Sequence record: MN781580
Source: Shigella phage KRT47
Strand: one strand, 5' to 3'
DNA: 64,000 nucleotides
Shown piece by piece: positions 37,025 through 38,042 of the stretch. Positions within the stretch are counted from its first letter, which is position 1. The number at the start of each line of letters is the position of its first letter. The translations under genes and the position numbers were made by a program. Below the pieces are notes generated by a model. It did not search any database. It had not been told where the DNA came from and saw only the letters and a list, made by a program, of their open reading frames with translations.

Positions 37025-37100
37025 TGGTCGAGGCAGTAGGGATCGAACCTACGACCTAGGACTTAGAAGGTCCTTGCTCTTCCTTCTGAGCTATGCCCCG
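37025..37100 (-). tRNA. tRNA-Arg (anticodon TCT)
   Basis: 76-nt cloverleaf on minus strand; anticodon loop CTTCTAA; T-loop GGTTCGATCC; CCA encoded. Confidence 0.85.
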
Positions 37101-37104
37101 TAAT

Positions 37105-37180
37105 TGGGGTGACCGATGGGAGTCGAACCCATGACTACGAGAATCACAATCTCGAGTTCTACCAACTGAACTACGGCCAC
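37105..37180 (-). tRNA. tRNA-His (anticodon GTG)
   Basis: 76-nt cloverleaf; anticodon stem CGAGA/TCTCG with loop TTGTGAT; discriminator C; CCA encoded; no encoded G-1. Confidence 0.7.
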
Positions 37181-37294
37181 ATTAATACCTACTCCAACAA
37201 TCAAGATGTCTTCACACGAAATTAAGAGAAGAGTGATCAGTTCAACCCCGATAATCGCGTCAAGTAGATATTAATGTGACAGTTGTCACAAATT

Positions 37295-37369
37295 TGGCGG
37301 ACGTGATAGGATTCGAACCTATAACCAATCGCTTAACAGGCGATCGCTCTGCCATTGAGCTACACATCC
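37295..37369 (-). tRNA. tRNA-Asn (anticodon GTT)
   Basis: 75-nt cloverleaf; anticodon stem ATCGC/GCGAT with loop CTGTTAA; T-loop TTCGAAT; CCA encoded. Confidence 0.85.
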
Positions 37370-37373
37370 AAAT

Positions 37374-37460
37374 TGGTGGGGAGTGATGGAGTCGAACCAC
37401 CCGAGTCGCAATGACAATGAATTTACAGTCCACACCGCTACCTCTACGGGATAACTCCCC
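37374..37460 (-). tRNA. tRNA-Tyr (anticodon GTA), long variable arm
   Basis: 87-nt type II structure; acceptor GGGGAGT/ACTCCCC; anticodon loop CTGTAAA; CCA encoded. Confidence 0.8.
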
Positions 37461-37469
37461 AAATTAATT

Positions 37470-37544
37470 TGGTGGCCCTGGGTGGAATTGAACCACCATC
37501 TGGCGATTATGAGTCGCTTGCTTGAACCTTCCAGCTACAGGGCC
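37470..37544 (-). tRNA. tRNA-Ile2/Met (anticodon CAT)
   Basis: 75-nt cloverleaf; anticodon loop CTCATAA; abuts tRNA-Thr as in the known T4 Thr-Ile dimeric precursor. Confidence 0.8.
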
Positions 37545-37545
37545 T

Positions 37546-37621
37546 TGGTGCTGATTGACGGAATCGAACCGCCGACCTTCTCATTACAAGTGAGTTGCTC
37601 TACCTACTGAGCTAAATCAGC
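37546..37621 (-). tRNA. tRNA-Thr (anticodon TGT)
   Basis: 76-nt cloverleaf; anticodon loop CTTGTAA; CCA encoded. Confidence 0.85.
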
Positions 37622-37626
37622 AAAAT

Positions 37627-37716
37627 TGGCGGAGGCGATAGGATTTGAACCTATGAGTCGCCGGAGCGACTGCCGGTTTTCAAGACCGGTGCATTAAACC
37701 ACTCTGCCACGCCTCC
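37627..37716 (-). tRNA. tRNA-Ser (anticodon TGA), long variable arm
   Basis: 90-nt type II structure; anticodon stem CCGGT/ACCGG with loop CTTGAAA; variable-arm hairpin GTCGC/GCGAC. Confidence 0.85.
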
Positions 37717-37718
37717 AG

Positions 37719-37792
37719 TCTCCATACAAGGATTTGAACCTTGGACCTCCTGATCCCAAATCAGGCGCTCTACCAAACTGAGCTACACGGAG
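37719..37792 (-). tRNA. tRNA-Pro (anticodon TGG), CCA not encoded
   Basis: 74-nt cloverleaf; anticodon loop TTTGGGA; 3' end abuts tRNA-Ser (dimeric precursor arrangement). Confidence 0.8.
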
Positions 37793-37802
37793 TAAATTAA
37801 AT

Positions 37803-37876
37803 TGGAGCGGATAATGAGAATCGAACTCACATCATCAGATTGGAAGTCTGAGGTAATGCCATTATACGATATCCGC
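37803..37876 (-). tRNA. tRNA-Gly (anticodon TCC)
   Basis: 74-nt cloverleaf; anticodon stem TCAGA/TCTGA with loop CTTCCAA; CCA encoded. Confidence 0.85.
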
Positions 37877-37881
37877 AAATT

Positions 37882-37968
37882 TGGTGCGAGAAGTGGGACT
37901 CGAACCCACAAGGAAATCATTCCGCAGCATTTTAAGTGCTGTGCCTTTACCAATTTGACCATTCTCGC
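37882..37968 (-). tRNA. tRNA-Leu (anticodon TAA), long variable arm
   Basis: 87-nt type II structure; anticodon stem CAGCA/TGCTG with loop CTTAAAA; CCA encoded. Confidence 0.85.
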
Positions 37969-37969
37969 G

Positions 37970-38042
37970 CTGGGAATAAAGGACTCGAACCTTTGCATCC
38001 TGGAATCAAAATCCAGTGCCTTACCAACTTGGCTAATTCCCA
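37970..38042 (-). tRNA. tRNA-Gln (anticodon TTG), CCA not encoded
   Basis: 73-nt cloverleaf starting with U1-A72 pair; anticodon stem CTGGA/TCCAG with loop TTTTGAT; abuts tRNA-Leu. Confidence 0.8.

What the first reader, a model, noticed from the sequence alone, without database searches (positions are those of the whole stretch)
37025..38042. Eleven-gene tRNA cluster carrying three extra GUN-anticodon tRNAs (Tyr, Asn, His)
By hand-folding the minus strand I get clean cloverleaves for Gln, Leu, Gly, Pro, Ser, Thr, Ile(CAT) and Arg, which is the classic T4 set with its Gln-Leu, Pro-Ser and Thr-Ile dimer arrangements. Three more tRNAs sit between Ile and Arg: Tyr(GUA), Asn(GUU) and His(GUG). 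These occupy the position where T4 has segB and the species 1/2 RNAs. They are three of the four queuosine-family GUN-anticodon tRNAs, the substrates of colicin E5-type anticodon nucleases, and tRNA-Tyr is the reported target of a retron-associated nuclease. A phage that brings its own copies of exactly these tRNAs may be replacing host tRNAs destroyed by abortive-infection nucleases, rather than adjusting codon usage.
Basis: partly seen in the sequence, partly recalled or inferred. Interest (0 to 1): 0.8.

Follow-up and report, generated by a model that had tools for sequence, protein, structure and literature searches.

The report
T2-type eleven-tRNA cluster of a T4-like phage
The eleven tRNA genes are real, but they are the already described "T2-type" form of the T-even phage tRNA cluster found in hundreds of sequenced phages. 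The idea that its extra tRNA-Tyr replaces host tRNA destroyed by defence nucleases has already been shown experimentally in phage T6. Only the tRNA-His module remains unexplained.

Summary
Observation confirmed. The window is a Tequatrovirus, 99.5% identical here to phage PinkRuby, where the same 11 tRNAs are annotated.

The cluster is not T4 plus three inserts. From the CAU tRNA onward it is the T2 allele. CAU, Tyr and Asn are 100% identical to T2. CAU and Arg are only 61% identical to T4. There is no segB. The T4 species-1 RNA region is retained downstream of tRNA-Arg.

Tyr-Asn and leader-His are two separate modules, found at ≥95% identity in about 495, 351 and 194 phage records (Tyr, Asn, leader+His).

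Codon use explains Tyr and Asn. Lys, Asn and Tyr are the three amino acids most over-used relative to E. coli (1.8x, 1.6x, 1.5x). It does not explain His (0.7x overall, 0.5x in late genes).

A defence-evasion role for tRNA-Tyr is already published: the T6 gene (98.9% identical) against Septu in 2026, and T5 tRNA-Tyr against retron-Eco7 in 2024. The colicin-E5/queuosine-family reading is not supported. All three phage tRNAs keep the E5 determinant YGUN, and Asp is missing.

Unexplained: tRNA-His has U rather than G at -1 and sits behind a conserved, covarying structured leader RNA of about 100 nt.

The parts
37969..38042 (-). tRNA-Gln(UUG), directly abutting tRNA-Leu with a 0-nt spacer; 88% identical to T4 tRNA-Gln, with a different anticodon stem
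37882..37968 (-). tRNA-Leu(UAA)
37803..37876 (-). tRNA-Gly(UCC)
37718..37792 (-). tRNA-Pro(UGG), no encoded CCA, 1 nt before tRNA-Ser
37627..37716 (-). tRNA-Ser(UGA)
37546..37621 (-). tRNA-Thr(UGU), 96% identical to T4; 3' side of the anticodon arm reads U36-A-A-U39-G40-A41
37470..37544 (-). tRNA(CAU) of the T2 allele: 100% identical to T2 'tRNA-Met' and 61% to T4 tRNA-Ile. It is Ile2-like: 76% identical to E. coli ileX, identical anticodon stem-loop, C4:G69 and C5:G68
37374..37460 (-). tRNA-Tyr(GUA) of the phage type. It has a weak, non-canonical D-arm, and its short variable arm plus T-arm are identical to those of T5 tRNA-Tyr. Identity is 100% to T2 and 98.9% to T6
37295..37369 (-). tRNA-Asn(GUU), 100% identical to T2. 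It therefore carries the preferred T4 SegB cleavage site mapped in the T2L gene. It has G39 where the host has U39
37181..37294 (-). Structured leader/spacer RNA 5' of tRNA-His. A small hairpin lies at 37275-37290. A 14-bp terminal helix pairs 37262-37275 with 37181-37194, and its last pair includes U(-1) of tRNA-His. The element is conserved with tRNA-His across several genera of T4-like phages (Tevenvirinae)
   Evidence: no Rfam match
37105..37180 (-). tRNA-His(GUG) with C73 and the anticodon loop UUGUGAU. The gene has T, not G, at position -1
37025..37100 (-). tRNA-Arg(UCU), T2-type allele, 61% identical to T4/T6 tRNA-Arg
36656..37006 (-). 116-aa ORF of unknown function (phrog_3355) inserted between tRNA-Arg and the rnaC region. 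It is present in T2 and PinkRuby and absent from T4
36312..36656 (-). Region 96% identical to T4 DNA just downstream of tRNA-Arg. It includes the species-1 RNA gene rnaC, at roughly 36397-36535
38140..38427 (-). 95-aa ORF upstream of the cluster, at the position of T4 'tRNA.2' (phrog_2023, unknown function)

Best explanation
This is the segB-less, T2-type allele of the tRNA gene cluster of T4-like coliphages (genus Tequatrovirus). It has been extended by a second, independently mobile module consisting of a structured leader RNA plus tRNA-His.

Inferred from T4 biology: the eleven genes are transcribed together on the early strand and cut out of polycistronic precursors by host RNases.

Shown here by codon counts: eight of the tRNAs read A-ending codons that the AT-rich phage uses 1.7-4.9 times more than E. 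coli. tRNA-Tyr and tRNA-Asn add capacity for the two amino acids, after Lys, that the phage over-uses most.

Shown by others for the 98.9%-identical T6 gene, inferred for this phage: tRNA-Tyr also acts as a dosage buffer against PtuAB-type nucleases (Septu, retron-Eco7), which deplete host tRNA-Tyr by cutting its variable arm. The phage tRNA is not immune to cleavage. It wins by supply.

tRNA-His is a functional tRNA under purifying selection, but phage codon demand does not explain it. It arrived as a cassette shared with Enterobacter and Klebsiella T4-like phages, and its role is open.
For: Identity and layout:
- The region is 99.5% identical to PinkRuby and 98% to wV7, both with the same 11 annotated tRNAs. 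258 phage records cover at least 80% of it.
- CAU, Tyr and Asn are 100% identical to T2.
- T2 has Met-Tyr-Asn-Arg, T6 has Met-Tyr-segB-Arg and T4 has Ile-segB-Arg.
- The window has no SegB homologue.
- The T2L/RB1/RB3 tRNA regions with Tyr and Asn were described in 2008, with the preferred SegB site inside tRNA-Asn (PMC2330249).

Demand:
- Phage/host amino-acid ratios are K 1.82, N 1.58, Y 1.54 and H 0.70.
- Codon ratios are AAT 2.64, TAT 2.18, CAT 0.89 and CAC 0.43.
- In late (+ strand) genes, Asn is 69.9, Tyr 46.7 and His 12.5 per 1000 codons. The host values are about 40, 30 and 24.

Defence:
- Septu cleaves tRNA-Tyr. T4 is sensitive and T2 resistant. T6 tRNA-Tyr over-expression or SegB-driven amplification rescues infection, and the tRNA-region deletion sensitises the phage (PMC13096335).
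- T5 tRNA-Tyr rescues from retron-Eco7 in a promoter- and dosage-dependent way, and even E. coli tRNA-Tyr works when driven by the strong phage promoter (PMC11555353).
- The window's tRNA-Tyr shares 33 identical nt of variable arm and T-arm with T5.

Modularity of His:
- Leader+His is at least 95% identical in 194 records and 87-91% identical in Klebsiella and Enterobacter T4-likes, where it sits between Gln and Ser.
- The tRNA-His cloverleaf covaries strongly.
Against: - Nothing was measured in this phage. Expression, processing, charging and any plating phenotype are all inferred.
- T2's resistance to Septu was not shown to depend on its tRNA-Tyr.
- The demand argument predicts a tRNA-Lys, since Lys is the most over-used amino acid, yet the cluster has none.
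- tRNA-His contradicts a pure demand model.
- Codon counts come from mechanically called ORFs in 64 kb of phage and 150 kb of E. coli K-12 DNA, not from expression-weighted gene sets.
Confidence: 0.75

Rival explanations
1. Tyr, Asn and His form a coordinated set chosen because they are queuosine-family (GUN) tRNAs. They would replace host tRNAs cut in the anticodon by colicin-E5-type nucleases, and would not serve codon usage.
For: - All three anticodons are GUN, and colicin E5 cleaves exactly Tyr, His, Asn and Asp (PMC1635277).
- If three extra tRNAs were drawn at random from the 12 amino acids that T4's set does not cover, all three would fall in this group of four about 2% of the time. This is a post hoc calculation of mine.
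- His is not explained by demand.
- Replacement by supply can work even when the phage tRNA is itself cleavable, as for T6 tRNA-Tyr.
Against: - The E5 determinant is only Y33-G34-U35-N36. The phage anticodon loops are identical to the host loops (CUGUAAA, CUGUUAA, UUGUGAU), so there is no escape change.
- tRNA-Asp is absent from the cluster. It is the second most susceptible E5 substrate and serves 6.4% of phage codons, so translation would still collapse.
- The three genes are not a unit. T6 has Tyr only, T2 has Tyr+Asn, and His comes with its own leader from a different lineage. Record counts are 495, 351 and 194.
- Relatives that carry His also carry Lys, Asp, Met, Trp, Glu and Phe.
- Tyr and Asn are fully predicted by demand.
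- Colicin E5 is an inter-bacterial toxin. No E5-type anti-phage system was found in the papers read.
Confidence: 0.06
2. Pure translational supply. All three extra tRNAs serve only to match the tRNA pool to the phage's AT-rich, Asn/Tyr-rich proteome, or to compensate for low-abundance host tRNAs. None of them has a role in defence.
For: - Asn and Tyr are the second and third most over-used amino acids. AAT and TAT rank 8th and 10th of 61 codons by phage/host ratio, directly after the codons of the classical T4 set.
- The enrichment is strongest for Asn in late structural genes.
- From my own knowledge: E. coli K-12 has a single tRNA-His gene, hisR (seen), so tRNA-His may be limiting despite low demand.
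Against: - His codons are used at 0.5-0.7 times the host frequency.
- There is no tRNA-Lys, although Lys is the most over-used amino acid.
- The T6 orthologue of tRNA-Tyr demonstrably modulates sensitivity to Septu.
- The same tRNA-Tyr allele occurs in SSU5-like phage-plasmids in a minimal Asn-Tyr-Thr cluster. The Asn and Thr of that cluster have lost U39 of the motif recognised by AriB, the nuclease of the PARIS defence system.
Confidence: 0.2
3. Passenger or selfish-DNA model. The extra tRNA genes are near-neutral cargo in a recombination hotspot, and their presence or absence is set by homing-endonuclease traffic rather than by selection on tRNA function.
For: - SegB cuts at the 3' ends of tRNA genes, and its preferred site is inside T2L tRNA-Asn. 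SegB homing excludes about 1.25 kb of T2L encoding Met, Tyr, Asn and Arg (PMC2330249).
- Both segB-containing genomes examined (T4, T6) lack Asn.
- Other relatives carry homing endonuclease genes or extra ORFs inside the cluster (rows H6-H8, H16, H18).
- The T4 tRNA region is described as non-essential.
Against: - The sequences are very well conserved. Asn is at least 99% identical in 316 records, and tRNA-His stems show 13 compensated pairs.
- The identity elements A73 (Tyr), G73 (Asn) and C73 (His) are kept, as are the anticodon loops.
- A phenotype has been demonstrated for T6 tRNA-Tyr.
Confidence: 0.1

Closest known systems
tRNA gene region of phage T2/T2L (also RB1, RB3), described by Brok-Volchanskaya et al. 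2008 (PMC2330249)
   Same: Same locus and gene order, with no segB. The CAU tRNA, tRNA-Tyr and tRNA-Asn are 100% identical, the Arg allele is the same, and the same ORF lies downstream of Arg.
   Different: The window keeps tRNA-Thr, where the T2 record has an ORF instead. It also has an extra 194-nt insertion (leader plus tRNA-His plus spacer) between Asn and Arg.
Classical T4 tRNA cluster: Gln, Leu, Gly, Pro, Ser, Thr, Ile, segB, Arg, species 1 RNA
   Same: Same genomic position between the ipI/tRNA.2-4 ORFs and the e region. The Gln-to-Thr genes are orthologous at 88-97% identity, with the same tight pairs. The rnaC region is 96% identical.
   Different: The CAU and Arg tRNAs are different genes (61% identity). 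There is no segB. Tyr, Asn, the leader and His are present. A 116-aa ORF separates Arg from the rnaC region.
T6 tRNA-Tyr with SegB as an anti-Septu determinant (Chihara et al. 2026, PMC13096335)
   Same: tRNA-Tyr is 98.9% identical and sits at the same position after the CAU tRNA.
   Different: T6 has segB next to Tyr, which allows tandem amplification, and it has no Asn or His. The window has no segB, so that route to amplification is absent.
T5 tRNA-rich region: tRNA-Tyr against retron-Eco7 (PMC11555353), and the RNAIII-tRNA-His arrangement
   Same: tRNA-Tyr is 83% identical overall, with an identical variable arm and T-arm. In T5, tRNA-His also has T at -1. It is immediately preceded by a 106-nt annotated stable RNA (RNAIII) that folds with a 12-bp terminal helix, like the window's leader.
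   Different: The T5 tRNA-His, tRNA-Asn and RNAIII sequences are not detectably homologous to the window's (60%, 66% and 45% in global alignment). T5 drives tRNA-Tyr from its own strong promoter, and no such promoter was identified here.
PARIS (AriB nuclease)-evading T5 tRNAs Lys/Thr/Asn (PMC11464382, PMC12409363)
   Same: The window encodes Thr(UGU) and Asn(GUU), two of the three AriB targets. Its Asn has G39, which breaks the U36-A-A-U39 motif, as T5 Asn does.
   Different: There is no tRNA-Lys(UUU), the primary AriB target. T4, which also lacks it, is PARIS-sensitive and needs T5 tRNA-Lys for rescue. The window's Thr keeps U39.
Colicin E5 substrates (Q34 tRNAs Tyr, His, Asn, Asp)
   Same: Three of the four substrate specificities are encoded.
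   Different: There are no changes in the YGUN determinant, Asp is absent, and no link between E5-type enzymes and phage defence was found.

Membership tests
Tequatrovirus (T-even) tRNA gene cluster | Located between the ipI/tRNA.2-4 ORFs and the e-region genes, on the early-transcribed strand | tested here: met
   Flanks are collinear with PinkRuby, T4, T2 and T6. Flanking ORFs match phrog_2023 and phrog_1411.
Tequatrovirus (T-even) tRNA gene cluster | Core order Gln-Leu-Gly-Pro-Ser-Thr-CAU...Arg, with the tightly abutting pairs Gln-Leu, Pro-Ser and Thr-CAU | tested here: met
   ARAGORN order and spacers of 0, 1 and 1 nt. The region is 97% identical to T4 over Gln to Thr (row H20).
T2-type (segB-less) allele of the cluster | CAU('Met')-Tyr-Asn-Arg block in place of T4's Ile-segB-Arg, and absence of segB | tested here: met
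   CAU, Tyr and Asn are 100% identical to T2. tblastn with T4 SegB finds nothing in the window at E≤1.
T2-type (segB-less) allele of the cluster | Preferred 27-bp SegB cleavage site inside tRNA-Asn | tested here: inconclusive
   The gene is 100% identical to tRNA-Asn in GenBank T2 records. The site itself was mapped in T2L (PMC2330249), whose sequence I did not compare directly.
Phage tRNA-Tyr that counteracts PtuAB nucleases (Septu Ec-B88, retron-Eco7) | Phage-type tRNA-Tyr(GUA) homologous to the T6 and T5 genes that were tested | tested here: met
   98.9% identical to T6. 83% identical to T5, with identical variable and T arms.
Phage tRNA-Tyr that counteracts PtuAB nucleases (Septu Ec-B88, retron-Eco7) | Loss of the gene sensitises the phage, and supplying it rescues the phage on a PtuAB host | not testable with these tools
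   Needs plating assays. Published only for T6, T5 and SP15.
PARIS (AriB nuclease)-evading phage tRNA set | Cleavage-resistant tRNA-Lys(UUU) variant, the primary target | tested here: not met
   There is no tRNA-Lys anywhere in the 64-kb window.
PARIS (AriB nuclease)-evading phage tRNA set | Substitution in the U36-A-A-U39-C40|N41 recognition and cleavage motif of Thr(UGU) and Asn(GUU) | tested here: inconclusive
   Asn reads UAAG39-C-G, so U39 is lost. Thr reads UAAU39-G40-A, so U39 is kept and C40 becomes G. The effect on cleavage was not measured.
Colicin-E5-resistant tRNA variants | Change in Y33-G34-U35-N36, the sole E5 determinant | tested here: not met
   The loops CUGUAAA, CUGUUAA and UUGUGAU are identical to those of E. 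coli tyrU, asnT and hisR. Determinant taken from PMC1635277.
Bacterial-type tRNA-His | Genome-encoded G at -1 pairing with C73 (major HisRS identity element; PMC9976931) | tested here: not met
   Position -1 is T in the window and in 14 of 14 distinct phage tRNA-His genes examined. E. coli hisR has G.
Bacterial-type tRNA-His | C73 discriminator, GUG anticodon and a canonical cloverleaf | tested here: met
   C73 and the loop UUGUGAU are present in the window. C73 and the GUG anticodon are invariant in the relatives. 98.5% of cells are paired and 13 of 21 pairs are compensated.
Rfam RNA families (for the 114-nt leader) | Match to any Rfam 15 covariance model | tested here: not met
   No hit within 37181-37294, even at E≤1.

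The most novel reading that the evidence does not exclude
The leader plus tRNA-His cassette may be a distinct functional module whose purpose is not codon supply.

It combines a tRNA-His gene that has U instead of the near-universal encoded G at -1 with a covarying structured RNA of about 100 nt whose terminal helix ends at that U(-1). The same arrangement recurs, without sequence homology, as RNAIII-tRNA-His in T5.

Possible roles:
- supplying a tRNA-His that a still unidentified nuclease or regulator targeting tRNA-His or reading G-1 cannot see;
- releasing a stable small RNA with a function of its own.
Probability: 0.15. Interest if true: 0.6.

Novelty: already known. Interest (0 to 1): 0.3.

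Why it matters
The cluster itself is textbook T-even biology, and the 11-gene version is annotated in many GenBank genomes.

What the window still offers is a clean natural series for testing demand against defence, gene by gene: T4 has none of the extra tRNAs, T6 has Tyr, T2 has Tyr+Asn, and this phage has Tyr+Asn+His. It also offers a tRNA-His module that codon usage does not explain. That module lacks the canonical encoded G-1 identity element and always travels behind a structured leader RNA.

If that module proves to have a defence-related or regulatory function, it would add a new target or countermeasure pair. It would also explain the long-unexplained 'stable RNAs' found in phage tRNA clusters.

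Tried and rejected
- Is the 114-nt gap a degenerate tRNA or a homologue of the T4 species 1/2 RNAs or T5 RNAIII/RNAI? ARAGORN and Rfam find nothing. blastn-short against the T4, T2 and T5 loci gives only 10-11-nt chance words. Global identity to RNAIII and RNAI is 44-45%. Sequence homology is rejected, but the resemblance in architecture is retained.
- Is the gap a promoter for His-Arg? The sigma-70 scan finds no minus-strand site in the gap, and the number of sites in the region equals the shuffled expectation (6 vs 5.7). The TGTGA-N6-TCACA palindrome at 37275-37290 looks like a CRP site. It is absent from the Klebsiella relatives and only partly present in the Enterobacter ones, and in RNA it is simply a hairpin. 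I did not pursue it.
- 'tRNA-Gln' appeared under the leader match in the Klebsiella hits. This is only a 2-nt overlap with the upstream gene.
- An IMG/VR scan with a 40-nt exact tRNA-Tyr pattern found nothing. A 29-nt core found 71 loci. An IMG/VR scan for the leader found only 4 loci, so the leader alignment was built from GenBank hits instead.
- Two full-text searches for a prior description of U-1, or of missing G-1, in phage tRNA-His found nothing relevant. Older T5 papers are probably outside the searchable library.
- Could the 'Ile(CAU)' be an elongator or initiator Met? It is 54-57% identical to T5 Met and fMet but 76% identical to E. coli ileX. Ile2 is favoured but not proven.
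Full report
**Observation**

ARAGORN finds 11 tRNA genes on the minus strand, spanning exactly 37025-38042. In order they are Gln(UUG), Leu(UAA), Gly(UCC), Pro(UGG), Ser(UGA), Thr(UGU), CAU, Tyr(GUA), Asn(GUU), His(GUG) and Arg(UCU). There are no other tRNAs in the window.

Rfam's tRNA model calls ten of them at 59-74 bits, against a gathering score of 29. 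tRNA-Tyr is missed. Its best match is 29.9 bits to the tRNA-Sec model, because its D-arm is non-canonical and its cloverleaf is thermodynamically weak. The cloverleaf scores -8 to -15 kcal/mol, against -27 for a non-cloverleaf fold. E. coli tyrU, by contrast, folds into its cloverleaf at -31.7.

The gene is nevertheless real:
- It is 100% identical to T2 tRNA-Tyr and 98.9% identical to T6 tRNA-Tyr.
- The T6 tRNA was detected by northern blot and fragment sequencing, and was described as relatively unstable (PMC13096335).

The Gln-Leu, Pro-Ser and Thr-CAU pairs are separated by 0, 1 and 1 nt.

**Where the window comes from**

The 1.3-kb region is 99.5% identical to Escherichia phage PinkRuby and 98% identical to wV7. 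Both are annotated with the same 11 tRNAs. In all, 976 phage records match the region, and 258 cover at least 80% of it. The window is therefore a T4-like coliphage of the genus Tequatrovirus.

**Anatomy compared with T4, T2 and T6**

T4 has Thr-Ile-segB-Arg, followed by the species-1 RNA gene rnaC. T6 has Thr-Met-Tyr-segB-Arg. T2 has Met-Tyr-Asn-Arg and no segB.

The window is not 'T4 plus three inserts':
- Its CAU tRNA and its tRNA-Arg are only 61% identical to the T4 genes. The CAU tRNA is 100% identical to T2's, and the Arg gene is the T2 type.
- Tyr and Asn are 100% identical to T2.
- No SegB homologue exists in the window.
- The T4 region containing rnaC is retained at about 36312-36656 (96% identity). 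It lies downstream of a 116-aa ORF (phrog_3355) that T4 lacks.

So the extra tRNAs occupy the segB position only, not the position of the species 1/2 RNAs.

The CAU tRNA is labelled Met by ARAGORN, GenBank and the T2L paper. It is, however, 76% identical to E. coli ileX, with an identical anticodon stem-loop and with C4:G69 and C5:G68. From my own knowledge, those two pairs are the recognition elements of the lysidine synthetase TilS.

This T2-type arrangement, with Tyr and Asn, was published in 2008 for T2L, RB1 and RB3. That paper also showed that the preferred cleavage site of the T4 homing endonuclease SegB lies inside tRNA-Asn. SegB homing replaces the Met-Tyr-Asn-Arg block (PMC2330249).

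**Two modules, not one set**

At ≥95% identity:
- tRNA-Tyr is found in 495 phage records, including rV5-like phages at 95%. It is also 83-85% identical in T5-like and Felix-O1-like phages.
- tRNA-Asn is found in 351 records, essentially only in Tequatrovirus-type coliphages and their close Shigella and Yersinia relatives.
- The 190-nt leader plus tRNA-His is found in 194 records. It is 87-91% identical in Klebsiella (Jiaodavirus) and Enterobacter T4-likes, where it lies between tRNA-Gln and tRNA-Ser.

T6 has Tyr alone, T2 has Tyr+Asn and the window has all three. Relatives that carry His also carry Lys, Asp, Met, Trp, Glu and Phe.

**Codon usage**

I called ORFs mechanically in the window (68 ORFs, 16,958 codons) and in 150 kb of E. 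coli K-12 (98 ORFs, 37,757 codons).

The three amino acids most over-used by the phage are Lys (1.82x), Asn (1.58x) and Tyr (1.54x). His is under-used (0.70x).

By phage/host ratio, the top-ranked codons are AGA, TCT, ACT, ATA, TCA, GGA and ACA. These are read by the classical T4 tRNAs. AAT (2.64x) follows at rank 8, TTA at rank 9 and TAT (2.18x) at rank 10. CAT is 0.89x and CAC is 0.43x.

In + strand (late, structural) genes, Asn is 69.9, Tyr 46.7 and His 12.5 per 1000 codons. Host values are about 40, 30 and 24.

**Nuclease recognition positions**

The anticodon loops of the three phage tRNAs are identical to those of E. coli tyrU, asnT and hisR. Only the stems differ. Overall identity is 64%, 62% and 79%.

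*Colicin E5.* E5 needs only Y33-G34-U35-N36, and GpUp is its minimal substrate (PMC1635277). The phage copies would therefore be cut. tRNA-Asp, E5's second-best substrate, serves 6.4% of phage codons and is not supplied.

*PtuAB (Septu, retron-Eco7).* The cut is in the variable arm of tRNA-Tyr. T6 tRNA-Tyr is itself cut, and rescue is by dosage. Rescue in T5 is likewise promoter-dependent, and even E. coli tRNA-Tyr rescues when driven by the strong phage promoter. The window's variable arm and T-arm are identical to T5's over 33 nt.

*PARIS (AriB nuclease).* AriB recognises U36-A-A-U39-C40|N41, and a U39 change abolishes cleavage. The window's Asn has G39, as T5 Asn does. Its Thr keeps U39 but has G40. 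However, the primary AriB target, tRNA-Lys, is not encoded. T4 needs T5 tRNA-Lys to escape PARIS, so an anti-PARIS role here would be incomplete.

**Published evidence on the central idea**

- Septu Ec-B88 restricts T4 strongly and T6 partly, while T2 is resistant.
- T6 escapers amplify a tRNA-Tyr/segB unit.
- tRNA-Tyr over-expression rescues T6, and deleting the tRNA region sensitises it (PMC13096335).
- T5 tRNA-Tyr neutralises retron-Eco7 (PMC11555353).
- The general hypothesis dates from 2023 (PMC10264068).

**The tRNA-His module, the part that is not explained**

*Position -1.* The gene has T at position -1, where E. coli hisR has the encoded G-1. G-1, C73 and the anticodon together define bacterial His identity (PMC9976931). 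T at -1 holds in 14 of 14 distinct phage tRNA-His genes examined. These come from seven genera of T4-like phages (subfamily Tevenvirinae) plus unclassified Enterobacter T4-likes, one Vequintavirinae phage, mycobacteriophage Bxz1 and T5. C73 and the GUG anticodon are invariant, and the stems covary: 13 of 21 pairs are compensated and 98.5% of cells are paired.

*The 114-nt 'gap'.* It is a structured RNA with an MFE of -30.7 kcal/mol and a z-score of -3.0. A 14-bp helix pairs its 5' part (37262-37275) with its 3' end (37181-37194), and the last pair includes U-1. In eight distinct sequences from at least five genera, 98.2% of cells are paired and three pairs show compensatory changes. Register-shifted controls give 39-53%. 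The interior of the element diverges freely.

*The T5 parallel.* T5 has an annotated 106-nt stable RNA, RNAIII, immediately 5' of its tRNA-His. It folds with a 12-bp terminal helix but shares no sequence similarity with the window's leader. The shorter leaders in KB57 and Kosakonia phage 305 are hairpins that end within 1-3 nt of the tRNA.

No Rfam family matches the leader. I found no description of these features in the searchable literature, although older T5 papers may cover U-1.

What follows is inference. RNase P normally cleaves at +1, and the -1 cleavage seen in tRNA-His precursors is tied to a G at -1 (PMC6582537). The mature phage tRNA may therefore lack the -1 nucleotide altogether. 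Flanking tRNA processing would then release a leader RNA with paired, blunt ends.

**Wider context of tRNA-Tyr**

The 29-nt core of its variable arm and T-arm occurs in 71 IMG/VR contigs. About 45 of them carry a minimal cluster, either Asn(GUU)-Tyr-Thr(UGU) or Arg(UCU)-Tyr-Thr. One of these is 97-98% identical to SSU5-like phage-plasmids. In those clusters both Asn (C39) and Thr (G39) have lost U39 of the AriB motif.

This is circumstantial support for a defence-related component in the spread of Tyr, Asn and Thr as a class. It does not involve His or the E5 logic.

**Verdict**

The object is the already known T2-type Tequatrovirus tRNA cluster.

Replacement of nuclease-depleted tRNA is established for Tyr, but it acts alongside codon demand, not instead of it. 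The colicin-E5/queuosine-family rationale is not supported.

The residual interest lies in the tRNA-His cassette, with its U-1 and its covarying leader RNA.

Noticed in passing
window 37180-37181 (position -1 of tRNA-His); also L004, L005, L009 (T5), L010-L019, L022-L024: The tRNA-His gene has T, not the near-universal encoded G, at position -1. This holds in 14 of 14 distinct phage tRNA-His genes examined, from T4-like genera, T5, a Vequintavirinae phage and mycobacteriophage Bxz1. E. coli hisR has G-1. C73 and the anticodon stay invariant.
   Followed up: partly
window 37181-37294 (-): The 114-nt spacer between Asn and His is a conserved structured RNA. A 14-bp helix pairs 37262-37275 with 37181-37194 and shows compensatory changes across T4-like genera, while the interior is variable. 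There is no Rfam match. T5's annotated stable RNAIII, directly 5' of T5 tRNA-His, has the same architecture without sequence homology.
   Followed up: partly
window 37275-37290 (-): TGTGACAACTGTCACA is a perfect TGTGA-N6-TCACA (CRP-consensus-like) palindrome at the junction between tRNA-Asn and the His module. It is only partly present in Enterobacter-phage relatives and absent from Klebsiella ones, and in RNA it forms a 6-bp hairpin. It may be a recombination scar.
   Followed up: partly
window 37374-37460 (-): tRNA-Tyr fails the Rfam tRNA model, and its cloverleaf is far from the MFE fold. The D-stem is better drawn as C12-C13-G14 pairing with C24-G25-G26, which the T5 and Roth66 variants support. 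That drawing leaves 4 nt instead of 2 between the acceptor and D stems.
   Followed up: partly
window 37470-37544 and 37025-37100 (-): The CAU and Arg(UCU) tRNAs are different genes from T4's Ile and Arg (61% identity) and are the T2 alleles. The right half of the cluster is thus an alternative allele exchanged as a block. This fits SegB-driven exclusion of about 1.25 kb in T4 x T2 crosses.
   Followed up: yes
window 36312-36656 (-) and 36451-36600: This region is 96% identical to the T4 species-1 RNA (rnaC) region. In PinkRuby a 150-nt 'hypothetical protein' CDS is annotated over it, and the window has a matching 49-aa GTG ORF. This is probably an RNA gene mis-annotated as protein.
   Followed up: no
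L026-L093 (IMG/VR contigs), e.g. L050:1-5000: About 45 contigs carry a minimal tRNA cluster, Asn(GUU)-Tyr(GUA)-Thr(UGU) or Arg(UCU)-Tyr-Thr, with the same tRNA-Tyr core. One of them is 97-98% identical to SSU5-like phage-plasmids. Their Asn (C39) and Thr (G39) both lack U39 of the motif recognised by the PARIS nuclease AriB. The Arg(UCU) and Asn(GUU) genes share acceptor and T arms, which looks like an anticodon-arm swap.
   Followed up: partly
window 37025-38042, inter-tRNA spacers: Nearly every tRNA with an encoded CCA is followed by an A/U-only spacer (AATTT, ATTTT, AATTAATTT, ATTT, ATTA, and the leader's AATTT). This is a recurrent motif, possibly a processing site.
   Followed up: no
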